64,000 bases of DNA. Origin: a virus. Lineage: Duplodnaviria; Caudoviricetes. The notes beneath the pieces are model-generated. The model saw only the letters and a program-made list of their open reading frames with translations, ran no database searches and had not been told where the DNA came from. Made by a program: the position numbers and the translations under genes. The DNA lies in the IMG/VR virus record IMGVR_UViG_3300002515_000003, positions 64,001-128,000 of that record; one strand, 5' to 3'. Each line of letters opens with the position of its first letter. Within the stretch, counting starts at the first letter, position 1. Below, piece by piece: positions 1 through 21,522 of this stretch.

Positions 1-4
1 ACCT

Positions 5-1384
5 TTGACTCTAAAATTAAATATCGGAGAAATACAAAATCAATTAAGGCAAATTACTGCACAAACGGAACAATTTAAAGCTACTATGAGTTCTAGTATG
101 GGTCTCAACACTGGTGGGTTTGATAAAGTAATGACGACTGTTAGAGAAATAGAAGGTGGAATGGGAAAGGTAGCGAGTACGGTCACCACTATTTCAAGTA
201 ATATGGGTCAAGTTATTACAACTACAACAAAACATGTATCGTTAATCGGAGAAGCATTAAGTATACAAAATCAAATAAGTCAAGCTGTTGTAAAAACTAC
301 AGATAATTATAAAACACAATTAGCTATAAAAGAAAAATCTATCGCAATGGGTGAATCAGGCTTAATTCAACGTGAAAACGTACTATTAGCAGAAGCTACT
401 GCATTAATGACAAAGAAACTAAACTTAGAACAACAAATTAAAGTAGCAAAAGAAAGTGGAAATTTACCATTACAGAGAGCATTGATTTTAAGAGAACAGG
501 AAGTTGCACTTCAATTACAATCTGCGAGAGCTAGTTTATCTAATTCTAGTGAGGCAACTAAATCTACTTTATTACAAAGAGAAGTTGAAATAAGGGCAAG
601 TATTGTTCTTCAAAATGCTAAAATATTAGGTCAAGGACAATTAGAAGCTACTGAGATTAAACGAAGAATAGCATTATATCAGCAAGAAAAAGAATTACAA
701 ATGGCAGGAATGAATCAGAAATATGGTTCATCTATAAATACTGCAAATTTAGCACAAGCACAATTAGCTATAAGACAATTAGGAACATCTGGCATAACAA
801 GTCTTAGTCAATTAAATGCAAAAGAACAACAAGTAAATATGAGTTTGAAAGAAATAGGAGCAAATGCTAGAGTTGCATCAAATGCTTTAAAACAAACAGG
901 AGGTTTGAGTGGTGCATTTAATGGGTTAGTATCGAATATGAAAAGTATGGCAATTTGGAGTCTTACAGCAGGTGCTATATTTGGAACGGTTAATGCTATA
1001 AAAGAAGGTATTGGTTCAGCGTTAGAAATGGACAAAACCCTCTCAATTTTATCTATTACAATGAACGGTACAAAAAGTGATTTTCAAGCAATGGCTAAAG
1101 AAATACAAAGTACCGCTATAGCGACAGGTAGTTCAGTGGAAGCTGTATCAGATGCTAGTAAAATTTACGCAAATATGGGAGAAACTGCAAGTTCAATACT
1201 TGAAAAGACGCGTTCTGCAATTATGTTATCGAACGTCACAGGGCTTGATACATCACAAACAACAGATTCTGTGCATGCAATTTTAAACCAGTATAATGAA
1301 GTGGGAAAGACGGCTACGGTAACATCTGAGCATGTTGCAAATTCTCTAGTAGCAATAAGTAAAAATATGGCAATGGACTTCGGT
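5..1384 (+). CDS. Tape measure protein, exon 1 (5' end probably lies upstream of the window)
   Basis: Helical A/Q/K-rich ORF with TMP-core-like end (SAIMLSNVTGL...ISKNMAMDFG); frame is open to the window edge; ends at the U of a P1 U.G pair. Confidence 0.85.
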
Positions 1385-2568
1385 AGTCTAAAATGTGCCG
1401 ACTAGGGTAGAAATATTCCTATGAAGAAACAAACCAATATCGGTAGAAGCTAAATTATAAAAATAAATCCAATACCTCAATAAAAACTTTAATATGTCAC
1501 CAACATAAAAGTATAGAATATAGTAATATAAATATAATATAAAAAAGGAAGCGAAATTAATGAAAAATAAGTATGGTCAAATCTATATGATAACTAATAA
1601 AATAGATGGGAAAGTCTACATAGGTAAAACCGTGGGTAGAGATGTTCTCAAAGATAGATATAATGGTAATTTACTATCAACGCATAATTTACATTTAAAA
1701 AATTCTATTTTAAAATATGAAATACAGAATTTTGAGATTAGCACATTATGTTGGGCAAACTCAAATGAGGAATTAGGAAATAAAGAAAAAGAATATATTT
1801 TAAAATATGATGCAATGAATGATAAAAAAGGATATAACATGCATGAGGGTGGACAAGGTGGAAGAATGAGTGCTGAAATTAATCTTATAATTGGAGAAAA
1901 ATCAAAGGAGTTTTGGGATAGTCATTCTGAAAGAAAACTTGAACTTGCTAAAAGTATGGTTGGTGAAAATAATTTTCTTGTAAAGCTAGGTGGTCATAAC
2001 GATGAAACAAAATTAAAAATGAGTAATTCGAGAAAACAACTATTAAAAGACCATAAAGACATTTTAGATAAGTCATTGGAAGCTTGTAACACACCTCAAG
2101 CTATTAGAAATAGAGTAATATCACAAAGCAAATTTTGGAATATTCAATATGATTTAGGTATGAATGAATTAAATAGATTTCATACGATGAAGGATATGTA
2201 TAATTTTATGATTAAAAATAATATTGAGACAAATATAACTTATGGTGGATTTAAAAATAAGAGCAAACTGAATAAGGTGTTTGGTGAACACCAATATAAA
2301 GGATTTTATTGGAGAAAAATTGGGAAATGATTTTTATAACAAGCTAGTACCGAGATAAAGCACATTATAATAGATGTGGCTCATCGTAACGCATAGAAGT
2401 TGAAACTGTGTTTTAATGCAGAACAAAATACTTCCACGAGTGGTTTGCACCTAAACAAGTAAAGTTGAAGGTGAAAATGTATGCTAGACTGGGTAGTATT
2501 GACCTACCGATTAAAATGAGGGAAACCTCCAGAGCAGTAGATAAAAAGCTACTGGGTAATTACGTACG
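1385..2568 (+). mobile_element. Group I intron 1 in TMP, containing a GIY-YIG homing endonuclease
   Basis: P1 UCGGU(1380-1384)/GCCGA(1397-1401); P4 UCGGU/ACCGA flanks the ORF; P7 GCAUA/UAUGC; terminal G2568; removal joins MAMDFG to AGIEEITKG in frame. Confidence 0.88.
1560..2330 (+). CDS. Intron-encoded GIY-YIG homing endonuclease with NUMOD-like C-terminal repeats
   Basis: GQIYMITNKIDGKVYIGKT motif, conserved R/E and GYN; RBS AAGGAAG. Confidence 0.9.
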   Translation: MKNKYGQIYMITNKIDGKVYIGKTVGRDVLKDRYNGNLLSTHNLHLKNSILKYEIQNFEISTLCWANSNEELGNKEKEYILKYDAMNDKKGYNMHEGGQGGRMSAEINLIIGEKSKEFWDSHSERKLELAKSMVGENNFLVKLGGHNDETKLKMSNSRKQLLKDHKDILDKSLEACNTPQAIRNRVISQSKFWNIQYDLGMNELNRFHTMKDMYNFMIKNNIETNITYGGFKNKSKLNKVFGEHQYKGFYWRKIGK

Positions 2569-2668
2569 GCAGGTATAGAAGAAATAACTAAGGGAATTCA
2601 GGTAGTGGGAACAGTTTCGTCCCAAACAGCAAAACTTACCTCAGATGAAACAGAAGCAATGATTGGAG
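2569..2668 (+). CDS. Tape measure protein, micro-exon 2 (AGIEEITKGIQVVGTVSSQTAKLTSDETEAMIG); not in the ORF track
   Basis: Open frame between two intron cores; fills the TMP core before AIVEKTR...GNGLKTIMARI; 3' border is 2668 or 2669. Confidence 0.82.
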
Positions 2669-3073
2669 TAACAAAAATAATTTAATAATTATAGCTCCCT
2701 TTGTCAAGTAATTGGCATAGCAAATAACACATATATGCAGGTAACTCCTAAAGCCTTACACTAAAACGGAATAGCGAATAGCTATATATGGAATGGTACG
2801 AAAGTAGAAAAAACGTAAGGATGATTAAATGGTTAAATCCTAATTAATCGTAAACAATGGATGTTCATGCAGGGAATTAGCGAATAGCTTTGCCCTCAAC
2901 GACTATCTCGAAAGAGAGTAAAACCGTAAGCGATTGACGGAGGAAAAGTGTTACTCCTTATTTAATAAGGATGGTGAAATAGTCTCGACTCTATATGAGA
3001 GTATAGGAAGTTTATTATATTAAATTAATATAAAAGAACTGCTTGGATTTAGCAAATTTAGGTGAAGATTACG
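2669..3073 (+). ncRNA. Group I intron 2 in TMP (ORF-less, canonical P7)
   Basis: P1 GGAGU/GCUCC(2694-2698); CAACGACUA (~2897-2905) and AAAUAGUCU (~2977-2985) P7 strands; P9 hairpins; likely omega G3073; 5' border ambiguous by 1 nt. Confidence 0.85.
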
Positions 3074-6000
3074 CAATTGTAGAAAAAACTCGATTAGGTG
3101 GAGAAACTGTCGGAAATGGTCTAAAAACCATAATGGCAAGAATCTACCAATCAAAAAGTATAGACCCAGATGTTTCTGATGAAGATATGTCTAAAATGTC
3201 AGCGATGCTTAGTAAATTAGGAATACAAGTTCGTGACACTACTGGTGCTTATAGACCTCTAAATGATATTTTGCAGGAAATAAGAACTAAACAAGAAGGA
3301 CTTACTGATTCCCAGAAAATGGCAATTAATACACAGGCATCTGGAATTCGCCAAGCTAATATTTTTGCGAATGCTCTTAGTACTGTAGAAAAAGCACAGA
3401 CTCTAAGTAACGAGGCAACCAATTCAAACGGGGAACTACAAAATGCGAATAATAAGTACTTAGATACGGCTCAAGCAAAATGGAAAATATTGGGTTCTAC
3501 TATGACGGCAATGTGGCAGAATTCAGTATCTTCAGATGGAATTAAAGGAATGATTGATGGATTAACAGGAATTGTAAAAGTTTTTGGTAATTTAAAAACT
3601 ATAGCAATGGCAGTTGTAACAACATTGTTACTTTTTAAAGGAGTGGGAATTCTTAGTTTTTTTACAGCACTTCCTGCAAAAATAATTGGAAGTATTACAT
3701 CATTAACATTATATAGAAATATTTCTGCCACCGTACAAATGCAACAAGCAGGAATGATAACAACAAATCAAGCATTATCGTTCTCATTTAAAGCATTAGG
3801 TGTTTCAATAAAAACAGCTTTTCTCTCTAATCCGCTAGGTTGGATAGCATTAGGAATTACTGCTATAGCTAGTGCCTTTTCCTTTGCTAGTTCTCAAGCT
3901 AAAAAACTTCAAGAGAATAACGCAGAACTACTTACAACCTCTAAAGAAGCAACTAATGCCAATAATGAAAATTTAAAATACTTTCAAGAAGAGGGAAATT
4001 CATATGACACATTAAAAGACAAAGTAACATTAACCACTGCAGAAAAACAAAAACTTCAAGAAATTCAGACCAAAATAGGAGAACAATTTCCTCAATTAAT
4101 AAAGGGATATGATGCTGAAGGAAAAGTTATTATTGATAAAACTAAAAACGTAAAAGATTTAGTTGAAGCTTTAAAAGAACAAAACACACAACAACAAAAT
4201 ATATTATTAGCAAATGGGGGAGATGCTTTAAAAGGGTCTCAAAAAACAATCTCTAATAATAACGCTTCGAAAGTTGAAAATAATACAGAATTAAAAAAAC
4301 TAGAAACAGGAAATTATACTACTGGTCATAATGACGCACCTATATATGAATCAGAGAATATAACTGCCTATACTAAAAAAGTAGCAGACTTAACAAAACA
4401 ACAAAAAGATGGGAAAAATGTAACAGATGAATTAGCAAAAGCAACGGCAACATTAAAAGACTTAGAATATAAACGTTCTGATATATTAAACGCTAATTCA
4501 GTATTAGAATCAAAAAATAAAGATGAAATGGCTAAAATAACTCCATATATTAGTGCTGTTATTAGTCAGTATGAAGGATTAAATGATGTTCAAAAGAAAT
4601 TTGTTGAAAATAGTGTTGAATTAACTCCATCGGATTTAATGAAGTTTGGAGAAGGAGATTTTAGTGGATTAAGAACAGCAGTTAATGAACAAATTAAAAA
4701 ACTTTCTAACTCTAAAGAAGTTGTAGACCTTGATAATTTAATTAAAATAGAAAACCCAAATCCTGCACAAATAAAGGAATATTTTGATTTAATATTTTCA
4801 TTGGCGAAAAAAACTGGTAAAAATCCCATAGATTTATCAAAATTAATGCCACTACAAGGTGATTCAACAGAAATAGAAAAACAATTAAAAATTTATCTTG
4901 ATGAAGTTAATTCTAAAATGAAAAAAGAAAAAGACAGTAATAAAATAAAAGCGTTAAAAACACAAGCAGATACAATAAATAATATGATTATTGCAGTACA
5001 TGTTGAAGCAACAGAGGTTGATGATGCACAAGTTAAATTGGATAAACTAGCAACTGCTATAAAAGCTTTAACAACAACTTTTGACACATCTATGGATTCA
5101 ATATCTTCTTATAATAAACTTATTTCACAATTCGATGAAGATGGTAGTTTTTCTGCTGAATCTATAAAGGAAATAATTGACAGTCATCAAGAATTAGCTG
5201 GGTATTTAGGCGATGAACCACTTCTCTATAATAAAATAAGTGAAGCAATGAATGCTTCGAAAAATACCGCAAATAAAGCTTATGCAGAAATGATGGCTTC
5301 TAATGAAGCTTACTATACCTCAAATATTAAAGGAACAGACATAATTAAAAAAGCATTAGGCTCTTATTATGATGAATTATCAGTAGACCAAAAAAATGAT
5401 TTAGAAAATTCTAAAACACTGGCAGAAAGTAAATTAATTGTTGAAAAATCACTCATTTCAAGATTAGCCTCAGCTTGGGATGCTTATAATAAAGCTGTTA
5501 GTGATGTCCTAAGTAAACATACTGAGTTAGCAACAAGGGCAGAGGGAAATGAAGCAGGAGATGAGCACACTGATGCTCTTTTAAGTCGGCTAGTTGGAAA
5601 CAATAAAGCAGTGCAAGATGCCTACACTTCGGCACAAAGTATACAGTCTCAAATTGATAAAATCGATACTTCTTTTAGCAATATTACTGCCAACATAAAA
5701 GCTCCAAACATTGATTCTTATGGTGCCTCTGTGGAAAAAGCAACTGATTCAACTAATAAGCTTACTGAGGCAGATAAAGCTTTAACTCAAGCCAATAAAG
5801 ATTTAGCACAAGCTACAAAACAATCAAAAAACGCAACAGATGATTATGATAATGCTATGAAATCTTTATCTGTACAAATGAAATTACTTGATTCGAGTCA
5901 ATCTAAACTTGAGGAACATTCTAAAGCTTACCGAGATGGAATTGAAAAGAAAATAACATTGTTAAAACAAGAATTAGATATAACTAAAAAATCTATGGTT

Positions 6001-6787
6001 GTGAATCAAGCTAATGCCAAAATATTACAATCACTTGAAGGTACTGCAAATATAGCTAGTGCTAATTCTGTATCTTCTAAAGCAGGACAAGACGTAGTAG
6101 CCGAAGCAAAGAAATATCTTGGAACTCCTTACGTATGGGGAGGTTCTAATACAAATGGTTTTGATTGTAGTGGGTTGGTACAATATGTATATAAACAACT
6201 TGGAGTAGATATAGGAAGAACAACATATGACCAAGTTAAACAAGGTACATCGGTAGCTAAAAAGGATTTACAAGCAGGTGATATTGTATTTTTTGGAGAC
6301 GCATCAAGCCCTCATCATGAAGGAATGTATATTGGTGATGGTAAGTTTATTCAAGCACCAAAAACAGGTGATGTTGTTAAAATATCACAATTAAATAGCA
6401 GAAGTGATTATGCAGGAGCTAGACGTATTTTAAGTGGTGGCTCTTCGGCAAGCAAATCTTCTACATCATCAAGTTCTTCAAGTAGTGGTTCATATGCAGG
6501 AGGATATGCAAATGGTAAATATAAAGATTGGATAAATCAAGCAGGAGCAAAATATGGAATTGACCCAAATATAATTGCAGGAATTATTCAAACCGAATCA
6601 AGTTTTGACCCTACTCAGAAAAATGCAAGTGGACATGTTGGATTAGGACAATTTTCAGCTTCTACTGCTAAAGAAGTTGGGTTAACAAATAGAACAGATG
6701 CTCAATCCTCTATAAATGCAATAGCTAAATATTTAAAAACAAGAATTGGATGGGCAGGTGGAGATGTCAATAAAGGCATCATGGGCT
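3074..6787 (+). CDS. Tape measure protein, exon 3, with NlpC/P60 peptidase and N-terminal part of an SLT lytic transglycosylase domain
   Basis: GNGLKTIMARI TMP core; LGTPYVWGG...GFDCSGLVQY...HEGMYIG (NlpC/P60); IIQTESSF...GLGQF (SLT). Confidence 0.92.
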
Positions 6788-7072
6788 AATTCTCAAATTG
6801 GCGTTTTAAATAGAAATATTTATTATTATTAGTGAGGAAAATCGGTGAAGAGTGAGAATCTTAATACCGAGAGGGGTTGTATCACAATTCCTTGTAGAGC
6901 GTAGAAGGTGAGCGTTATGAAAGCAATAATCCTTCCAAGAGTCTTCGCCACATTAGCAAGTAAAGTTGAATGTGAAAATGTACGCCGAACTGTGCTCGAA
7001 TTAACGAGTTGTAATGGAGTAAAATGAACTCCCAGAACATAGGGATAAAAAACCTTATGGATAACACAATTG
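6788..7072 (+). ncRNA. Group I intron 3 in TMP (ORF-less, 285 nt), inside the SLT domain
   Basis: P1 with U6787.G6800; P7 GCGUA/UACGC; omega G7072; splicing rebuilds codon TAT, giving KGIMGYGEGTTAYLNRVLG. Confidence 0.9.
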
Positions 7073-8610
7073 ATGGAGAAGGAACAACTGCTTACTTAAA
7101 TAGAGTATTAGGTAATACACCTAAAGGTGGAAGTAGTTCGTCAGGTATTTCAAGTAGTGCAGATACTTCTGTAACAGATGGAGGTTCTGATAATCTTTTA
7201 TCTACAATAGACAGTCAAAGAAATGCAATAATTGAGTTAGAAGACCAAATTATAGAGCAAATGTTTGTTAAAGTTAAAAATGTCTTATCAGAATATGATG
7301 ACAGAGTTACAGATATAACTAAGAAAAATAGTACTCTAAAAAATGAATCAGATGATACTTTAGATGGAAATAGACGAGTAGAAATATCTAAAGAAATTGA
7401 TAAAAATCTAACACAAGAATTATCATTAACTAAAGAAAAAGAAGCATATATAAAACGTGAAATAGCAAGTAGAAAATATACGGTAGGACAAGTTGCTGAG
7501 TTAAACTCACAGTTGTTGGAAGTTTTAGATTCTGAATCATCTATTAGTTTAGAAATTCAACAACAATATAATGATAAAATTACTATTATTCAATCTGCGG
7601 AAAGTAAAATTACTGAAATAATTAATAAACAAGTTGAAAAACGTAAGAAAATAATCTCCGACCAATATGATGCTGAGAAAAAAGCTATTACAGATACTCA
7701 AGCTTTATATTCAAAGCAAAATACTACAGATGATTATAATAAAAATTTAACTACAGAACAAAAATCTTTATCAGATATTAACGCTTCAATTACTTCTGCA
7801 AGTAGAGATACTTCAAGTAGTGGATTAGCAAGAGTTGCACAATTAAAACTAGATTTAAAAACTCAACAAGATAAAATTGATGCAATGGTTTTAGATAGAG
7901 GAAGAGCTTTAAATAATGATAAATATGATACAGAATTAACTAAATTAGATGACCAAAATACTGCGACATTAAAGAAAATGGATGAAACTTATTCTGAAGA
8001 GAATATAAATAAAATGGCGAGTGCAAGTGTTGCAAGTGGAGTGTTGACAGATATCAATGATAAGGTTGTTTCATTAAATTCAGCTTATATTGCATTTGAA
8101 AATGAATTTGGTGAAGGAATGTCTGCTATGGGAGATAGTATAAAAGCCAATCTAATAGCAACATTAACGCAAGCAAGTGGATTAATGAAATCTATGGGAA
8201 TTGATAGTTCAACTGTGAGTGCTAAAAAATTAGTGGACGGAAGTCACGAATCAGGGTTAAAAAATGTCCCAAAAAATGGGTATATAGCAGAATTACATAA
8301 AGACGAAGGAGTATTAACGAAAGAAGAAAATACAGAATATAAGAAATTAAAGGCAATGGGAATATTAAATAATTTAGGACAAATTGCTAAAGGTAAATTT
8401 AATAATCTTTTGACTAATTTTAATATACCTAAATCGAATAATGTTGATATGAGCAATGTAAAATCTCAAGGTTCAACATCACCTGTTATTAATTTTAATA
8501 AAGCATTTATGGAAATAGGAAGTGTAAGTAATGACATAGATATGGAAAAATGGGCTATTAAAGCAAGAGATATGGCAACTAGTGCAATCTATGATGCAAT
8601 AAAAGCATAA
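7073..8610 (+). CDS. Tape measure protein, exon 4 (end of SLT domain and C-terminus)
   Basis: In frame after intron 3; GSHESGLKNVPKNGYIAELHKDEGVLT motif typical of TMP C-termini. Confidence 0.9.
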
Positions 8611-8637
8611 ACATTAATAACTAAATCACATCCATTT

Positions 8638-8668
8638 AGAGGAGGAGATAAAATCCCTTCTCTTTTCT
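8638..8668 (+). terminator. Putative intrinsic terminator after TMP
   Basis: AGAGGAGG/CCTTCTCT stem followed by T tract. Confidence 0.5.
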
Positions 8669-8736
8669 TATGTAAATAATGAACTAAAATATAGATAAAT
8701 AAGAATATAAAATATAATACAAAAGGAGGTTATAAT

Positions 8737-9531
8737 ATGAGTTTTTCGGGATTAAATTTTAAATGGAATAATATAGAAAATACAGAATTAGACATTGTAC
8801 TTGTTAGAACTTCTACTGGAACAATTACACAATCATTATCCTCGCCTAAAACATTTGCAACAGAACATGTAAAATTTGGAGACACATATTTTTATGGTTC
8901 TGACCAAAGTACATATAATTTAAACTTCTCAGTGATGAAATCGAATATGGACGAAGAGCCGTTTACCAATGAAGAGAGGATGGATTTGATGAGATATTTT
9001 TGTCCTGACAATAATTTCCATCCGTTTATTTCAGAAGATTTTGACGAAGAATCAGGTCAACAAATTGAGTTCTGGGTGCAATTTAACAAGGCACAATTTA
9101 CAAGTTTTAGAAAGAATGTAGGTGTGTATGAGCTTGAGGCTACCTCAAATGCACCTTATCCATTCTCAGAATTAATGACTTCTTCATTTATTTCAAAACA
9201 AGATGACAATATAATGCAAATTTCTAATAATTGTAATACTCAACCTTTTTATACTCCTACTTGTCTTAATATATCACTTTTAAACGATGCAACTAGTTTC
9301 TCATTAAGAAATTTAAATACAGGTAAATTACTTGAGTTTAAGGATTTAGATAAACTTGAGAAAATATCAATTAACTCAAGACAAGAAATTATAAGTAATA
9401 CAGGTAAAATAAGAATAGATAATTTTAATTTCGGATTTGGAGCACTTGACCTAGCTTTTGGAATAAATGACCTTGAAATCTCCGTTGATTGTGAGATAGA
9501 ATTTCAAATGCAATATCCAATACAAATATAA
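8737..9531 (+). CDS. Distal tail protein (Dit)-like
   Basis: Directly after TMP; 264 aa; APYPFS and LAFGINDLEI motifs of Dit family; strong RBS AAGGAGG. Confidence 0.8.
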   Translation: MSFSGLNFKWNNIENTELDIVLVRTSTGTITQSLSSPKTFATEHVKFGDTYFYGSDQSTYNLNFSVMKSNMDEEPFTNEERMDLMRYFCPDNNFHPFISEDFDEESGQQIEFWVQFNKAQFTSFRKNVGVYELEATSNAPYPFSELMTSSFISKQDDNIMQISNNCNTQPFYTPTCLNISLLNDATSFSLRNLNTGKLLEFKDLDKLEKISINSRQEIISNTGKIRIDNFNFGFGALDLAFGINDLEISVDCEIEFQMQYPIQI

Positions 9532-16328: not shown

Positions 16329-19300
16329 ATGTCAACTCAAAAACCATATTCATTTTCAATTGACTTATATCAACCAAGTCCAATTCCTAAGATGGAATTT
16401 TATCAAACAGATAGAAATAATTGTGTAATGAATATCATATTAAAAAAACAACAAAAGGGATTAGATATGACAGGATTAACTCCTTATTGTGCAATTTTAA
16501 AACCTGACAACACTTTATCAATTTATTCCAATGATGTATTTGTAACAGATTTAGAGGATGGACAAATTCAAGTAACATTATCAATGCAATCTTTAGGTTC
16601 TGTAGGATTATGTCATGCACAAATATTTCTAACATCTGGAGCAAATACAAAAATAACATTGCCTGAATTTACATTTAGAGTTAGAAAATCATATGAAGAA
16701 GATGGATTATTTGAACAAACAAATGAATTCCCTATTATGAGTTCTGTTGCAAATATCATAGCAAACTTTCAAGAAAAAGGTGATTATGATAATACAGTAA
16801 AATATGAAGTATATAATATGGTAAGATATGGTATTGGAAATTACATAAATACAAATTCTTGCACAGGAATTATTCCTACAAATATTACTAATTGGAAACT
16901 TGTTAGTAGGGATGGTAAAAATGGATTTTCTGCTATGCAAACAAGCACGTTTACTGCAATAGCAAATGGAACTTCACATATTATAACAGGATTTGTAAAT
17001 TATGATGATACACATGATAATATTCAAGTTATAGATTCCTACACGGGAGGAGAATTAATTGAAGGAATAAATTATACTTGTAATACAGATGGGGCTAGTA
17101 TTGATTTAATAGGATGGACTGTTGATATAGGATATTCATTTGGATTTACATTATATTCAAATTTAAATGGTGCAACATTACAATCTGATATAGATAATGC
17201 TATTGCTCAAAAAGCTTTGCTTGAAGCAAGTATCATAGAAGCTAAAAAAAGTACGTTTGCAGATGAGATTGCTAATGGAAGACAAGGGAAAACTAGTATA
17301 TTAGAAAATTTTCAAGAAAAGGATGTAAAAATAGCAAATTTAATAGCAGAAGTTGTAGCAAGTAGACAAGGCTCTGCAAGTTTATTAGCTAATTTGCAAG
17401 GTAATGATGCAGTAATGGCACAAGCTATTGCAACTAATTTTACCACTACTACTAATTTAAATAAAATTAATACAGATAAAATAAACATCATAGGAGACCC
17501 AACTTTAGTAGATAATTATACACCTAAATCTATGACTGTAAGGATAGAAGATAGCGATAGTGGACTAAAATATGTCGGTGCATTTGTAGCAGTTACATCC
17601 CCTATATATCCTTATTTGACATCACATGTATCTACAAGCGTAAATGACGTTGTAAATTTCACTTTTACTGGTTCTGCAATTAAATTATATGATATAACAA
17701 CTCCTAATAGTGGAATTATAGAAATATTTATTGATGGGATTAGCAAAGGTAAAATAGATAGATATTCTACTGCTATTACAACAGGACAAAAAGCTTATGA
17801 GGTTGCTAATTTAGTTTATGGAGAACATTTATTTAAAATAGTAAATACAGAAACTAAAAATGTAAATTCTACTGGATATGCTTTTGCCTTAGATTATTTA
17901 GAAATAATTACAAATTCTTCAATCCTTAGAGACGTTTCATTAGAGGTAACAAATAGTGTAAAACAAGGTGATATATATCTTAACGTTAAAGATTTTGGTG
18001 CTAAAGGGGATGGAGTGACAGATGATACACTTGCCATTCAAGATTGTATAAATCATGCAACTAATACAAGCACAATATTTTTTCCATCAACAGGACTACA
18101 TTTTTATAATGTTTCTAGTTTAACAATTCCAACAACAACATCTGATTTAAGATTATTAGGTTCAGGAATGGTTCATAGTTGGATTAAATTTACATCAAAC
18201 GTTGCAGTATCTATATTAACAAATGGTTGTCATTTTAGTAATATGAGATTGACAGGAACTGGATTCTCTACAAGTGGTAGTACTATATTTAAAGACAATA
18301 GAACATTAAATACAGCAGATTTTGATTTTAGTATGGATAATTGTTATATATCAGATGCAGAGACTGTAGTAGATGTAAAAGGTAGAGGTGTTAGTATTGA
18401 TTCAAGTTTCTTTTATAATATTCGTTATCAAATAATAAAAGCTGATTTCCCAGCAGTATCAGTATTTGTTGCAGGAGCAGAAACTACTCAAAAATTTGCA
18501 ACAGGTTTTAGAGGTTTCGTATTTAGAAATAGTGGAGTACATTATTCTCCATGTTCAATTATAACTAATCTTGGAGCAAACGCTAAAAACATGGTTGGTA
18601 TTTTAATAACAGGGAATAAATTAGAGGGTTCTGTTTCATATTTCGAAGGTTATGCTAGAAACATGACTATATCAAATAATATTCATTACCACGTTGGTAA
18701 TACTAGAGAAGCATTAATAATGTTACATGGATGTGATAATGTGAATATTGATGTTAATGTAAGTGGAATGAAAGTTGAAGTTGATGGTGTTAATTCTTAT
18801 TGCAATAAACTTGTACATTGTAGTGGTTTTTACAACAATCTTACAATCAAGGCAAATATACAAGACACTTGGAAAGATGTATTTTGTTTTACTGCTGGAG
18901 GTAATAACTTAGATATACAAGTAAATGCTGGTAGGATATGTCAGAACAGAGATGCAGACTATAATTTAGTTAGACTCTTAACTCCTTCAGCTATTTATGA
19001 TGGAGTTAATGTTCGTGGTTCAACAACTAGCCCTTTTAATCATTTTATGGGTATTCAAAGGGATTCTAATCAAGTTAATAACTATAACGTCAACTTAGAT
19101 ATTATAGGAGATTTTTATATGTATGATAATCTCAATTCTTTAAGTGCAGGTGTAAGAAGAACATTAACAGGGATATATGGTGGAGATGGAAAAGCTACAC
19201 AATATGTACAAGTTAAATATAAACCAGCTTTAGTACAAATAATGGCAGTTGGATATGTTGGTATAAAACCAGTAGGAACATCAGTTATATCTGGTGAAAT

Positions 19301-19379
19301 TACAATTACTGATGGAGGTTTTGTTATAACAGGTATTGCTAACACTTTAAATAAAATTTATGCTTATACAGTTATGTGA
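16329..19379 (+). CDS. BppU-type baseplate/receptor-binding protein with a CBM-like domain and a pectin-lyase-like beta-helix (putative depolymerase)
   Basis: FYQTD...KPD...DGQI BppU-like N-terminus; NVKDFGAKGDGVTDDTLAIQ motif. Confidence 0.8.
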   Translation: MSTQKPYSFSIDLYQPSPIPKMEFYQTDRNNCVMNIILKKQQKGLDMTGLTPYCAILKPDNTLSIYSNDVFVTDLEDGQIQVTLSMQSLGSVGLCHAQIFLTSGANTKITLPEFTFRVRKSYEEDGLFEQTNEFPIMSSVANIIANFQEKGDYDNTVKYEVYNMVRYGIGNYINTNSCTGIIPTNITNWKLVSRDGKNGFSAMQTSTFTAIANGTSHIITGFVNYDDTHDNIQVIDSYTGGELIEGINYTCNTDGASIDLIGWTVDIGYSFGFTLYSNLNGATLQSDIDNAIAQKALLEASIIEAKKSTFADEIANGRQGKTSILENFQEKDVKIANLIAEVVASRQGSASLLANLQGNDAVMAQAIATNFTTTTNLNKINTDKINIIGDPTLVDNYTPKSMTVRIEDSDSGLKYVGAFVAVTSPIYPYLTSHVSTSVNDVVNFTFTGSAIKLYDITTPNSGIIEIFIDGISKGKIDRYSTAITTGQKAYEVANLVYGEHLFKIVNTETKNVNSTGYAFALDYLEIITNSSILRDVSLEVTNSVKQGDIYLNVKDFGAKGDGVTDDTLAIQDCINHATNTSTIFFPSTGLHFYNVSSLTIPTTTSDLRLLGSGMVHSWIKFTSNVAVSILTNGCHFSNMRLTGTGFSTSGSTIFKDNRTLNTADFDFSMDNCYISDAETVVDVKGRGVSIDSSFFYNIRYQIIKADFPAVSVFVAGAETTQKFATGFRGFVFRNSGVHYSPCSIITNLGANAKNMVGILITGNKLEGSVSYFEGYARNMTISNNIHYHVGNTREALIMLHGCDNVNIDVNVSGMKVEVDGVNSYCNKLVHCSGFYNNLTIKANIQDTWKDVFCFTAGGNNLDIQVNAGRICQNRDADYNLVRLLTPSAIYDGVNVRGSTTSPFNHFMGIQRDSNQVNNYNVNLDIIGDFYMYDNLNSLSAGVRRTLTGIYGGDGKATQYVQVKYKPALVQIMAVGYVGIKPVGTSVISGEITITDGGFVITGIANTLNKIYAYTVM

Positions 19380-19394
19380 TTAAAACAATATAAA

Positions 19395-19438
19395 TTAATA
19401 ATAAGAAGCCACATTAATTTGTGGTTTTTATTATTAAA
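19395..19438 (+). terminator. Long hairpin/terminator
   Basis: TTAATAATAAGAAGCCACA / TGTGGTTTTTATTATTAA inverted repeat. Confidence 0.55.
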
Positions 19439-19455
19439 AAGAGGAGGAATTATAA

Positions 19456-19845
19456 ATGGGAGCTTTATCAATAATCGAAGATATTAAAAAACTTATAGTA
19501 GAGTTTGATGAATTAATAATTAACGAAAATAATAATACTGCTATTTTAAATGAATCAAAAGGAGTAGAAGAAAGTTTAGCTATTCGATTAGATAAAATAA
19601 ATTTAGAATTATCCAAAAAGAAGAAAGAGGTGTCATTTATAGCCATAGCAGATAACGCTTCTAATATTACTTTTGAGGGTATTTTAGATTTGACATTAAT
19701 ATCTTTTGATTTAACTTTCAAAGGTGTTTTATTCGATGAAACTAATTTTTCTATTAATCCTGAAAATCTATCTGAAATAATCTTAACAGATTGGAGTATT
19801 AATACTGGAGATAAAATATTGTTGAAATATTTTGCTAATATGTAA
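19456..19845 (+). CDS. Hypothetical tail-module protein
   Basis: RBS GAGGAGG; C-terminus (LTDWSINTGD) resembles a segment of the 16329 protein (LIGWTVDIGY). Confidence 0.65.
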   Translation: MGALSIIEDIKKLIVEFDELIINENNNTAILNESKGVEESLAIRLDKINLELSKKKKEVSFIAIADNASNITFEGILDLTLISFDLTFKGVLFDETNFSINPENLSEIILTDWSINTGDKILLKYFANM

Positions 19846-19965
19846 TAAAAGTAACTAAAGATAAAAATATAAAATAAAAGAGAGGTTATTTAAATGATTA
19901 AAAATAAGACTGATAATATGAATAAATATGCGATAAAAATGAGTAACTATAAGGAGGTTTTATAA

Positions 19966-21522
19966 ATGAGTGCATTGCCAGTAGTACAAGATATAAAAGA
20001 TTTAAGAACGGACGTAAACCTCAAGTCTAGTCAAATATCGTTAAATGAAACTAATAATAATGTTACGAATATATCTACAGAGTTAACAAATTCAAGAGGT
20101 GGTAAAGTAAATTTAAATGCTCGACTTATAGAAAATGAGTCGAGTTTGGCAAATAATTTGACGCAAGTAGCATTGAAAGTAGATAAAGTTATTGGCAAAG
20201 GATTATCTACAAATGATTATAGTGCTACGGAAAAAGCAGAGGTTGCAAAAGTAGCAATAAAAGCTGATAAAGCTTATACAGATTTGCAAATAGCAAATGT
20301 AGCAAGCGGGACACCAAGAACAACTTATGCAACATTGGCTTTATTGGTAGCAGGGATACCAACAGGGAATATCTATAGTTATGTATGTACCGATGGTCAT
20401 AGATATTGGTGGAATGGCACTGCATGGACAGATGGAGGAATATATCAAAGTGTAGGAGTTGCAGATAGATGGATAACCCCTATAAAAACATCATTTTTCA
20501 ATGACATATTGAATTATTTTAATAGTGCTACTGGTTTGACTGATAAAGATGTAGACCGTAATAACGGTAATTATTTAACTTTTGTTGGAAGAATGGCAAG
20601 CGAATTTATACCAATAGAGGGAAATACAACTTGGCTTTGTAATTATAGTGGTAATTATGCGTTTTGTGATGTGGAAACTGCTTTTATAAGTGGTGGGATT
20701 ATTACACCTAATGTAGCTTTTACAGCACCTTCTAATGCAAAATACGTAATAATATCCGTTGCAGGATTATCTAATGTACCTACCGCAATGTTGAGTAAAG
20801 ACGCCTTACCAACAACATATAAACCTTATGGTACAACATATATAAATCCAAATTATATTGACGCCTATGCTTTATCTCAAAGTGAAGATTTCCAAATTCC
20901 AATGGCAACCAGTAAATTTGCTACTTTAACATGGAATAGTGAGGGTGATAGTATTACTGCAAATGGTCTATATCAGCCATTAGTACAAGCTAAATTAGGT
21001 TTTGCATTAATTAGAAACACTGGAATAGGTGGCACTTATTTGGCTTCAAATGCTGATGGTTCAAATACTGACGCTATTGTGTTTAGATACCTAAACATGA
21101 ATAACGATGCAGATGTTATTACAATAGGTGGTGGTACAAATGACTGGGGAGCTAATGTCCCAATAGGAACAGTTGGGACAATGGATATAAAAACAATTAG
21201 AGGTGCAGTAGCTACAATTATAGAGGGATTAAATACTAAATATCCAGGCAAATATATTATTTGGTTAACCTTGCCTAAAAGAAATAATGGTTATACGACC
21301 ACAGGAGTTAACGCGAATGGAGATAGTACAAGGGATTACGCAAAGGCTATTATTGATGTATGCGAATCCTATGCTACACCTTGCATAGACTTAGAACAAT
21401 TAAGTGGTATAAATAAATATAACGATACCTCATATCTAGGTGATGGAATACATCCCATCGAATTAGGTAATAAGAGGATAGCAAGTTTAATAATTGATAT
21501 GTTTAATAAAGTAGTTTATTAA
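19966..21522 (+). CDS. Tail fibre/RBP with C-terminal SGNH/GDSL esterase
   Basis: KVDKVIGKGLSTNDY fibre motif; GDSITA, GGTNDW and DGIHP SGNH blocks. Confidence 0.82.
   Translation: MSALPVVQDIKDLRTDVNLKSSQISLNETNNNVTNISTELTNSRGGKVNLNARLIENESSLANNLTQVALKVDKVIGKGLSTNDYSATEKAEVAKVAIKADKAYTDLQIANVASGTPRTTYATLALLVAGIPTGNIYSYVCTDGHRYWWNGTAWTDGGIYQSVGVADRWITPIKTSFFNDILNYFNSATGLTDKDVDRNNGNYLTFVGRMASEFIPIEGNTTWLCNYSGNYAFCDVETAFISGGIITPNVAFTAPSNAKYVIISVAGLSNVPTAMLSKDALPTTYKPYGTTYINPNYIDAYALSQSEDFQIPMATSKFATLTWNSEGDSITANGLYQPLVQAKLGFALIRNTGIGGTYLASNADGSNTDAIVFRYLNMNNDADVITIGGGTNDWGANVPIGTVGTMDIKTIRGAVATIIEGLNTKYPGKYIIWLTLPKRNNGYTTTGVNANGDSTRDYAKAIIDVCESYATPCIDLEQLSGINKYNDTSYLGDGIHPIELGNKRIASLIIDMFNKVVY

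What the first reader, a model, noticed from the sequence alone, without database searches (positions are those of the whole stretch)
1384..7073. Tape measure gene split by three group I introns, including a hidden 100-nt exon
Seen in sequence: the three TMP ORFs rejoin as exons 5-1384, 2569-2668, 3074-6787 and 7073-8610, totalling 6732 nt (2243 aa from position 5). The joins restore the TMP core (MDFG|AGIEE...MIG|AIVEKTR) and the SLT motif (GIMG-Y-GEGT). Established: most described phage group I introns sit in DNA-metabolism genes. Inference: tail assembly here depends on three splicing events, and skipping or failure would give short or truncated TMP.
Basis: partly seen in the sequence, partly recalled or inferred. 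Interest (0 to 1): 0.7.

Follow-up and report, generated by a model that had tools for sequence, protein, structure and literature searches.

The report
Phage tail-ruler gene with three introns
The tail tape measure gene of a large uncultured phage is broken by three self-splicing-type (group I) introns, one hiding a 100-base exon; this is a real feature, but of a kind already described in other phages.

Summary
Joining 5-1384, 2569-2668, 3074-6787 and 7073-8610 gives one 6732-nt frame of 2243 codons. Intron-less relatives align across all three joins without a gap. The gene starts 94 nt upstream of the window, so it is about 2276 aa.

Introns 1 and 3 belong to one IA-type group I family. Its P3/P7 pseudoknot core shows strong covariation. 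A model built without window sequences finds both (E 4e-32 and 2e-42). Intron 1 is a near copy of an ORF-less intron at the same site in a related phage, plus a GIY-YIG endonuclease gene in its P5 loop.

Intron 2 is a different, IA2-like lineage, the ribozyme type of IS607-family IStrons. Its 5' exon appears to end in G, not U.

Rfam's own model misses all three at its threshold. No RNA data exist, so splicing is inferred, not shown.

Tape-measure introns, three-intron phage genes and hidden small exons are all in print. I rate this a new member of a known kind. The genome holds at least six group I introns.

The parts
1..1384 (+). Exon 1 of the tape measure gene (cut by the window edge; likely ATG 94 nt upstream of the window)
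   Evidence: Open frame 2..1405. Upstream extension and start candidates. PHROG tape-measure families match. Colinear with P0005, P0006, P0007 and YomI.
1385..2568 (+). Intron 1 (1184 nt), IA-type group I. P1 1380-1384/1397-1401 with U1384.G1397; P2 1404-1420 (GNRA loop); P3 1430-1435/2442-2447; P4 1440-1444/2349-2353; P5 1448-1450/2343-2345; P6 2354-2385; P7 2391-2395/2480-2484; P7.1 2396-2400/2430-2434; P8 2448-2452/2469-2473; J8/7 2474-2479; branched P9 2489-2532; P9.1 2536-2553; terminal G2568
   Evidence: Model R1 hits 2288-2489 at 113.4 bits, E 4e-32. The 5' part is 90% and the 3' part 94% identical to the ORF-less intron at the same site in L042. Helix coordinates were counted by hand on the ruler.
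1560..2330 (+). GIY-YIG homing endonuclease gene inside the P5 loop of intron 1
   Evidence: Pfam PF01541 scores 26.1 bits against a cut-off of 22.6. PHROG homing endonuclease phrog_314, E 5e-27. The ORF is absent from the L042 copy of the intron.
2569..2668 (+). Exon 2, a 100-nt micro-exon (33 codons plus 1 nt)
   Evidence: Aligns residue for residue, without a gap, to P0006 and P0007 and to L042.
2669..3073 (+). Intron 2 (405 nt, no ORF), IA2-like group I of the IStron-type lineage. P1 2665-2669/2694-2698 (G2668-C2695, U2669.G2694); P2 2700-2724; P3 2725-2730/2948-2953; P4 2737-2748/2859-2870; P5 2754-2759/2815-2820; P6 2871-2896; P7 2901-2905/2980-2984; P7.1 2906-2917; P7.2 2924-2940; P8 2956-2970; terminal G3073
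   Evidence: Model R2 hits 2864-2987 at 110 bits, E 1.4e-21. Rfam RF00028 scores 20.2 bits, E 0.0059, below gathering. About 70% identical to inserts in Staphylococcus phages. The 3' tail is conserved up to G3073 in related introns of other genes. Coordinates were counted by hand.
3074..6787 (+). Exon 3 (3714 nt, 1238 codons). It holds the end of the tape-measure core, the transmembrane and coiled region, an NlpC/P60 domain and most of the SLT domain
   Evidence: Pfam NLPC_P60 at 99.1 bits, SLT at 50.9 bits, PhageMin_Tail at 32.1 bits against a cut-off of 33.2. Colinearity is shown.
6788..7072 (+). Intron 3 (285 nt, no ORF), same family as intron 1. P1 6785-6791/6796-6802 with U6787.G6800; P2 6808-6821; P3 6832-6837/6943-6948; P4 6842-6846/6866-6870; P5 6848-6851/6859-6862; P6 6871-6893; P7 6899-6903/6981-6985; P7.1 6904-6908/6931-6935; P8 6949-6953/6970-6974; J8/7 6975-6980; branched P9 6990-7035; P9.1 7039-7058; terminal G7072
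   Evidence: Model R1 hits 6803-6990 at 147.7 bits, E 2e-42, over the full model. It shares an exact 25-mer with intron 1; 0 were expected by chance. Coordinates were counted by hand.
7073..8610 (+). Exon 4 (1538 nt including the stop), the C-terminal part of the tape measure protein
   Evidence: PHROG tape-measure phrog_10871, profile positions 1753-1970 of 2054, E 2e-33. Contiguous with exon 3 in L005 and L006.

Best explanation
One tape measure gene of about 2276 codons is interrupted by three group I introns of two lineages.

Introns 1 and 3 are paralogues of a widespread IA-type family found in phage structural genes. Intron 1 is the mobile form, carrying a GIY-YIG homing endonuclease gene in its P5 loop. 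Intron 3 is a minimal 285-nt form.

Intron 2 is a 405-nt, ORF-less member of the IA2-like lineage that also forms the ribozyme part of IS607-family IStrons.

The inferred mechanism is as follows. The primary transcript folds each ribozyme. A free guanosine attacks after U1384, after G2668 and after U6787. The freed 5' exons then attack after the terminal G2568, G3073 and G7072. The mature mRNA encodes a full-length protein with the tape-measure core, NlpC/P60 and SLT domains intact.

What is shown here: the exon structure by colinearity, the RNA fold by covariation, and family membership by covariance models. What is inferred: self-splicing itself and the exact 5' cut of intron 2.
For: (1) The joined exons give one 2243-codon frame.

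(2) Uninterrupted relatives cross each junction without a gap: P0006 and P0007, L042 at the intron 2 site, L005 and L006, and YomI.

(3) The intron 1/3 family was analysed on 10 non-window sequences with a hand-drawn P3-P8 core. 94.6% of 444 cells are paired, against 76.1% in shuffles and 34-39% when the partner is slid. 23 of 45 pairs show double changes. P3 covaries at 6 of 6 pairs, P7 at 2 of 5, and P7.1 at 4 of 5. 0 of 500 shuffles reach the observed values.

(4) Model R1, built from those 10 sequences, finds intron 3 (147.7 bits, E 2e-42) and the 3' part of intron 1 (113.4 bits, E 4e-32). Nothing else in the 64 kb scores better than E 0.7.

(5) In the intron 2 family, RNAalifold on 15 non-window sequences predicts 50 pairs, 29 with double changes. 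Model R2, built from 12 non-window sequences, finds intron 2 at 110 bits, E 1.4e-21.

(6) All three inserts end in G. Introns 1 and 3 follow a U that pairs with G in P1 (read). All 9 full-length family members that I delimited also follow U and end in G.

(7) Intron 1 carries a GIY-YIG ORF that is absent from its 90-94% identical counterpart at the same site in L042.

(8) The same families interrupt tape measure genes of phiCD211 (R1 at 157 bits; the record annotates an Intron_gpI) and of phage c-st.
Against: No RNA evidence exists. No run on record as RNA holds the sequence.

Rfam's curated group I model does not reach its gathering score. There is nothing in the whole window and nothing for intron 3 alone at E up to 10. 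Intron 2 scores only 20.2 bits against a threshold of 50.

Intron 2 breaks the U.G rule. The only join that restores colinearity and keeps a terminal G puts G2668, paired with C2695, at the 5' splice site. The U.G pair (U2669.G2694) sits one position inside the intron.

P7 of the intron 1/3 family has only 5 bp, and the family has a single P7.1 stem rather than P7.1 plus P7.2, so its subgroup is not settled.

The covariation structure was drawn by me on these same sequences, which favours it in the slide control.
Confidence: 0.87

Rival explanations
1. Intron 2 is cut at canonical positions instead. Either the 5' cut falls after U2669 and the 3' cut after G3062, giving an in-frame protein with four extra residues, or the 3' cut falls after C3074, giving one residue changed.
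For: U2669.G2694 is the only U.G pair in P1. Relatives show a compensatory change in the P1 stem that fixes this register (L063, L090, L096, L076, read by eye). Both alternatives stay in frame (read).
Against: The 11 nt between 3063 and 3073 are conserved in related introns that sit in other exon contexts, and similarity stops exactly at the base matching G3073. A 3' end at C3074 has no terminal G. The intron-less relative L042 has at the DNA level exactly the junction that the G2668/G3073 cut restores. Three further insertion contexts of this lineage (L064-type, L087-type, L076) also need a non-U 5' exon end to keep colinearity with phiCD211 and L038. IS607 IStron introns are reported to splice at the transposon end that abuts a TGGG motif (PMC10690162, sections 5 and 8 read; figures not seen).
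Confidence: 0.12
2. The three ORFs are separate genes and are not spliced, as the split tape measure of phage c-st is annotated. Alternatively, the gene is a decaying pseudogene whose ribozymes no longer work.
For: The c-st record annotates two tape-measure CDSs as N-terminal and middle parts. No RNA data exist. Rfam's model is below threshold.
Against: Exon 2 has no start codon context and encodes 33 codons that are colinear with relatives. The SLT domain is cut in mid-domain. All four exons stay open over 6.7 kb. The ribozyme cores keep every helix, with compensatory changes relative to their relatives. The c-st gap itself holds a member of the same intron family.
Confidence: 0.04
3. The inserts are removed or bypassed by another route, such as group II splicing, inteins, translational bypass or DNA-level excision.
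For: None was found. IStron relatives of intron 2 can also excise as DNA (PMC10690162, section 8).
Against: The inserts carry stops in the exon frame and are 285-1184 nt long, which rules out inteins and ribosome hopping. No group II family was hit. Intron 2 has no transposase gene. Contigs from two samples carry the inserts as DNA.
Confidence: 0.01

Closest known systems
Group I introns TMP-IVS1, IVS2 and IVS3 in tape measure genes of Bacillus cereus-group prophages (Tourasse and Kolsto 2008, PMC2504315; passages read)
   Same: Group I introns of IA1/IA2 type inside the tape measure gene, at three different conserved sites. Similar introns sit at different sites of one gene. Some carry endonuclease genes and some do not.
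   Different: In the passages I read, the strains described carry two of the three sites in one gene. Here three introns sit in one gene, and they come from two lineages. The hosts differ. I did not compare the sequences directly.
Tape measure introns of Clostridioides phage phiCD211 and Clostridium phage c-st
   Same: Same intron family as introns 1 and 3: R1 scores 157 bits in the phiCD211 gap and 28 bits in the c-st gap. Both host proteins are large YomI-like tape measure proteins of phages of 130-185 kb.
   Different: The insertion sites differ. The c-st intron lies 10 codons downstream of the intron 2 site. phiCD211 is annotated with an Intron_gpI. c-st is annotated as two separate genes.
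Staphylococcus phage Twort orf142 (three self-splicing group I introns in one gene, exon skipping; Landthaler and Shub 1999) and Bastillevirinae polymerase and terminase genes (PMC11878797)
   Same: Phage genes with two or three group I introns. A previously unnoticed small exon between two introns. Exon skipping observed in vitro.
   Different: These are other genes. For Twort I saw only the title as cited in PMC11878797. For Bastillevirinae I read passages, which do not mention tape measure genes (0 occurrences).
IS607-family IStron group I intron (CboIStron of Clostridium botulinum; PMC10690162 preprint)
   Same: Model R2, which finds intron 2, also finds the ribozyme directly upstream of a serine-recombinase TnpA and a TnpB in c-st (89 bits), and upstream of a TnpB in a Staphylococcus phage (96.6 bits). 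The core is IA2, Twort-like. The 5' exon ends in a G-rich motif rather than in U.
   Different: Intron 2 has no tnpA, tnpB or guide-RNA region, so it is a free-standing ribozyme. I did not align it with the published CboIStron sequence itself.
Intron in the tail lysin gene of Staphylococcus phage phiIBB-SEP1
   Same: About 70% nucleotide identity to the intron 2 core. R2 scores 82 bits. The CDS is annotated as joined from two pieces.
   Different: The gene differs, the 5' splice site there can be canonical, and the 3' part is unrelated.

Membership tests
Group I intron | P1 helix in which the last exon base is a U paired with G of the internal guide | tested here: inconclusive
   Met for intron 1 (U1384.G1397) and intron 3 (U6787.G6800), read. 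Not met for intron 2 if colinearity and the terminal G are kept: G2668-C2695 is the last exon pair, and U2669.G2694 lies one position inside the intron.
Group I intron | Intron ends in G (omega G) | tested here: met
   G2568, G3073 and G7072. The 9 full-length relatives of introns 1 and 3 also end in G. The intron 2 tail is conserved up to that G.
Group I intron | Conserved core with P3/P7 pseudoknot, P4-P6 domain and P8, supported by covariation | tested here: met
   94.6% of cells paired, 23 of 45 pairs with double changes, 0 of 500 shuffles as high; 29 of 50 pairs with double changes. The intron 2 P3 was paired by eye only.
Group I intron | Match to the curated Rfam family RF00028 at its gathering score | tested here: not met
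   No match at gathering in the window. Intron 2 scores 20.2 bits against 50. Intron 3 has no match at E up to 10. Own family models score 110-148 bits.
Group I intron | Guanosine-dependent self-splicing | not testable with these tools
   No RNA run is available.
Subgroup IA2 (Twort/T4 td type) | Extra stems P7.1 and P7.2 between P7 and P3' | tested here: inconclusive
   Intron 2 has both, at 2906-2917 and 2924-2940, and both are in the R2 consensus. Introns 1 and 3 have one stem there, P7.1, so their subgroup (IA1, IA2 or IA3) is left open.
IStron (IS607 family) | Group I ribozyme fused to tnpA and/or tnpB and a guide RNA within one mobile unit | tested here: not met
   Intron 2 is 405 nt with no ORF. 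Only the ribozyme type is shared.
GIY-YIG homing endonuclease | GIY-YIG catalytic domain above the Pfam cut-off, encoded inside an intron | tested here: met
   PF01541 scores 26.1 bits against a cut-off of 22.6. PHROG homing endonuclease families match.
Phage tail tape measure protein (YomI-like, with lytic domains) | Tape-measure core plus NlpC/P60 and SLT domains, colinear with known tape measure proteins | tested here: met
   PF10145 itself is just under its cut-off on exon 3 alone (32.1 against 33.2).

The most novel reading that the evidence does not exclude
Exon 3 is exactly 1238 codons long. Skipping it, by joining the 5' splice site of intron 2 to the 3' splice site of intron 3, would stay in frame. 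The product would be a tape measure protein of about 1005 codons, counted from window position 5, without the NlpC/P60 domain. Exon skipping by neighbouring phage group I introns is documented. Alternative splicing could therefore let one gene specify two ruler lengths, or make tail assembly depend on ribozyme folding conditions. A more sober novel point is that intron 2 would be a transposase-less descendant of IStron ribozymes that splices after a G-C pair instead of a U.G pair.
Probability: 0.04. Interest if true: 0.75.

Novelty: new member of a known kind. Interest (0 to 1): 0.4.

Why it matters
It shows how automatic annotation breaks a 2276-codon structural gene into three 'genes' and loses a 33-codon exon. 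The same mis-annotation is visible in the c-st record.

It also documents that two unrelated group I lineages have colonised the most conserved motifs of one tape measure gene. One lineage is endonuclease-borne. The other is otherwise known as the ribozyme of TnpB-carrying IStrons.

Rfam's group I model misses these phage families. The two covariance models made here recover further copies in the same genome and in related phages.

The likely G at the 5' splice site of intron 2 gives a simple, testable case of a natural group I intron without the U.G wobble at the cut.

Tried and rejected
Megablast of the first 9 kb against phage records found no match.

Rfam gave nothing at gathering or at E up to 10 on the 6.2-kb region for group I, and nothing on intron 3 alone.

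No RNA holder was listed. Laying the contigs of two peat metagenome runs showed only intron-containing DNA. It showed no intron-less allele and no joint at the introns.

An exact pattern from the intron 2 P7-P7.1 region found nothing in viral contigs. A different 23-mer then found 66 stretches.

I tried to fix the splice sites of this lineage from the phiIBB-SEP1 tail lysin. The relatives I fetched were also split. Protein homologues allow a canonical junction there, so that case does not bear on intron 2.

L063, which has the same intron type in a tape measure gene, turned out to have two ribozyme cores and an ORF. I could not place its exons.

I first mistook P9 and P9.1 of the intron 1/3 family for P8 and P9, and the P7 pairing for P3. 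Recalled similarity of the 3' end to the Twort ribozyme, followed by covariation, corrected this.

The coordinates were counted by hand and may be off by a base.

Pfam gave no family for the host genes of the other introns in the genome.

Supplementary files of the papers were not seen. They may hold the exact splice-site sequences of the Bacillus TMP introns and of the IStrons.


Full report
**Setting.** The window is bases 64001-128000 of a 195,571-base virus record, estimated 95% complete. The DNA occurs in contigs of two peat metagenome runs. Its tape measure protein is most like those of Clostridium phage c-st and the SPbeta group. A Clostridium MAG contig is 59% identical. A Clostridia-type host is therefore likely, but not shown.

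**The observation.**
- Three same-strand ORFs (2..1405, 3043..6789, 7024..8610) carry tape-measure signatures.
- The first ORF matches tape-measure PHROGs.
- The second holds the last third of Pfam PhageMin_Tail, an NlpC/P60 domain and an SLT domain that stops at profile position 89 of 117.
- The third matches the C-terminal part of long tape-measure PHROGs.
- The frame is open at the window edge. In the genome it reaches back 112 nt, with an ATG 94 nt upstream of the window. The protein then has about 2276 residues, close to YomI (2285) and P0005 (2268).

**Do relatives cross the joins?**
- BLASTP of the joined protein against SPbeta YomI gives one alignment from residue 217 to 866 that runs through junctions 1 and 2. 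A second alignment, 1622-1735, runs through junction 3.
- A search with the first ORF for longer proteins returned 4 proteins with E up to 0.001 among 7998 scored. In a MAFFT alignment, P0006 and P0007 match the micro-exon residue for residue with no gap at either side.
- Viral contig L042 encodes a 55-59% identical protein. It has the intron 1 homologue but reads straight through the intron 2 site.
- Viral contigs L005 and L006 read straight through junction 3, at 46% identity over 336 residues with no gap at the join.
- An alternative 3' site for intron 3, 12 nt upstream, would also be in frame, but it is excluded by this colinearity.

**Introns 1 and 3.**
- They share an exact 25-mer, with 0 expected by chance.
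- That 25-mer occurs in 6 viral stretches and one Jeotgalicoccus MAG. An 18-mer core occurs in 48 viral stretches.
- By a longer motif, 29 loci carry the intron type and 23 of them are distinct. The remaining stretches are chance matches in coding sequence.
- Reading these sequences side by side gave a canonical layout: P1, P2 with a GNRA loop, P3, a 3-4 nt J3/4, P4-P5, P6, J6/7, P7, one P7.1 stem, P3', P8, a 6-nt J8/7, P7', then P9, P9.1 and a short tail ending in G.
- I tested the core on alignment A2, made of 10 non-window sequences. Rows left out were those with an ORF in the P5 loop (they cannot be given as one stretch), c-st (large insertions), L012 (near-duplicate of L010) and the window's own introns.
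- In A2, 94.6% of 444 cells pair, against 76.1% in shuffles and 34-39% when partners are slid by 1-3 columns. 23 of 45 pairs have double changes. P3 covaries at all 6 pairs, P7.1 at 4 of 5, and P7 at 2 of 5. 0 of 500 shuffles reach any observed measure. The structure was drawn on these sequences, which favours it in the slide control, but the margin is large.
- Covariance model R1, built from A2 with P7 left out because pseudoknots cannot be modelled, finds intron 3 over the whole model (147.7 bits, E 2e-42). It also finds the 3' two-thirds of intron 1 (113.4 bits, E 4e-32). The next hits in the window have E 0.7. One of them, at 1442-1476, is the P4-P5 5' strand of intron 1, upstream of the ORF.
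- Intron 1 is 90% (5' part) and 94% (3' part) identical to the ORF-less intron at the same codon in L042, with compensatory changes in a P9 branch. The difference between them is the 771-nt GIY-YIG gene in the P5 loop.
- All 9 relatives that I could delimit follow a U and end in G, as introns 1 and 3 do.

**Intron 2.**
- By eye it has the classical R and S elements of phage IA2 introns.
- Searched alone, Rfam's RF00028 aligns the whole model at 20.2 bits, E 0.0059, below the gathering score of 50.
- It is about 70% identical over bases 75-323 to inserts in 66 phage records, 54 of them Staphylococcus phages. One of these lies in the phiIBB-SEP1 tail lysin gene, which is annotated as a two-piece join.
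- A 23-mer from it occurs in 66 viral stretches. 39 copies had both anchors I used, and 33 of those were distinct.
- RNAalifold on 15 of the 33 distinct copies predicts 50 pairs (P4, P5, P6, P7, P7.1, P7.2, P8), 29 with double changes. P3 lies outside that alignment. I paired it by eye (2725-2730 with 2948-2953), with covarying counterparts in relatives.
- Model R2, built from 12 of the 15 sequences (three with long insertions were dropped), finds intron 2 at 110 bits, E 1.4e-21. It also finds a second copy elsewhere in the genome at 127.8 bits.
- R2 also hits the ribozyme directly upstream of a MerR-resolvase TnpA and a TnpB in c-st, and upstream of a TnpB in a Staphylococcus Silviavirus. This is the architecture of IS607-family IStrons.

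**The odd splice site of intron 2.**
- Colinearity and a terminal G require the cut G2668 | ... G3073 |.
- In P1, G2665-G2668 pair with C2695-C2698, and the only U.G pair (U2669.G2694) involves the first intron base.
- A cut after U2669 needs either a 3' end at C3074, which has no terminal G, or one at G3062, which adds four residues.
- Against G3062: the last 11 intron bases are conserved in related introns that sit in a different exon context, and similarity stops exactly at the base equivalent to G3073.
- Three further contexts of this lineage were read by eye against the intron-less phiCD211 and L038 proteins. These are L064-type (six variants), L087-type (three variants) and L076. They also need a 5' exon that ends in G (or, for L087-type, A) and has no U nearby.
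- This fits the preprint on IStrons (PMC10690162; abstract and sections 5 and 8 read, figures and supplements not seen). There the 5' and 3' splice sites coincide with the transposon ends, a TGGG motif abuts the left end and pairs for 5' splice-site recognition, and scarless splicing was shown by RT-PCR and in vitro.

**How it most likely works.**
- The long late transcript must fold three ribozymes.
- The arithmetic shows that an unspliced message stops after codon 466, counted from window position 5. A message retaining intron 2 stops after codon 498, and one retaining intron 3 after codon 1731.
- Skipping exon 2 stops at codon 462. Skipping exon 3 stays in frame, giving 1005 codons.
- A functional tape measure protein therefore needs all three reactions. 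This is inference.
- Each intron sits in a conserved motif: two in the tape-measure core and one in the SLT active-site region. That is the usual choice of homing introns, as stated for the Bacillus tape measure introns in PMC2504315.

**Comparison with what is known.**
- Tape measure introns at three sites, with similar introns at different sites of one gene, are described for Bacillus cereus-group prophages (PMC2504315, passages).
- phiCD211 carries an annotated Intron_gpI between its two tape-measure CDSs. R1 hits that gap at 157 bits.
- The c-st tape measure gap holds a member of the same family, 10 codons from the intron 2 site.
- Three introns in one phage gene and exon skipping are reported for Twort orf142. 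I saw only the title, cited in PMC11878797.
- Genes with two or three introns, a hidden small exon and a skipped exon are reported for Bastillevirinae (PMC11878797, passages; tape measure not mentioned).
- My literature search for 'group I intron' plus 'tape measure' listed 38 papers. I read passages of two of them.
- I found no description of three introns of two lineages in one tape measure gene, but I did not search for that exhaustively.

**Verdict.** It is a new member of a known kind. The points of moderate interest are the micro-exon, the IStron-type ribozyme without transposase genes, its non-U 5' splice site, and the failure of the curated Rfam model on both families.

Noticed in passing
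Genome outside the window: G000 7224-7431 (locus L131): A fourth intron, of the intron 1/3 family (R1 at 119.7 bits, E 1e-33). It lies between ORFs 6669-7244 and 7478-8797. The first ORF weakly matches terminase large subunit PHROGs (E 1e-4), so the terminase gene is probably split too.
   Followed up: partly
Genome outside the window: G000 33408-33610 (L132:13608-13810): A fifth intron of the same family (R1 at 154 bits, E 6e-44). It lies after ORF 32777-33394 (phrog_11814, unknown function) and before a 384-aa ORF with no family.
   Followed up: partly
Genome outside the window: G000 about 19243-21400 (L131 and L132): A sixth intron, of the intron 2 lineage (R2 at 127.8 bits). It interrupts a virion structural protein gene (phrog_2729) and carries a 507-aa HNH-type endonuclease ORF (phrog_559, E 9e-105). 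I did not find the 3' exon.
   Followed up: partly
L001 (phage c-st) about 170-2724 and 4611-5000: c-st carries an IS607-type IStron just upstream of its tape measure gene: an R2-type ribozyme, a MerR-resolvase TnpA and a TnpB. The gap between its two annotated tape-measure CDSs holds an intron of the 1/3 family. The record annotates neither as an intron.
   Followed up: partly
L010, L011, L012, L014 (viral contigs), about 130 nt upstream of the shared motif: Two group I introns in tandem appear to be separated by an exon of only about 45 nt in another tape-measure-like gene (read by eye). In the L064-type contigs an intron of the 1/3 family and one of the intron 2 lineage are separated by an exon of about 110 nt. 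Micro-exons between tape measure introns may be common.
   Followed up: no
L042 2448-4316: The close relative L042 has a further 1.9-kb insert in its tape measure gene, near codon 424, where the window's gene is continuous. I did not examine it.
   Followed up: no
L059 (phiCD211) 6013-6596: The gap between the two tape-measure CDSs holds the R1 hit at 6006-6224. The record's own Intron_gpI annotation lies at 6306-6571. These may be two ribozyme cores, or one long intron.
   Followed up: no
L015 (Jeotgalicoccus MAG) 6799-7063: A 265-nt member of the intron 1/3 family sits in what reads as the Walker A region of a prophage terminase large subunit gene (by eye).
   Followed up: no
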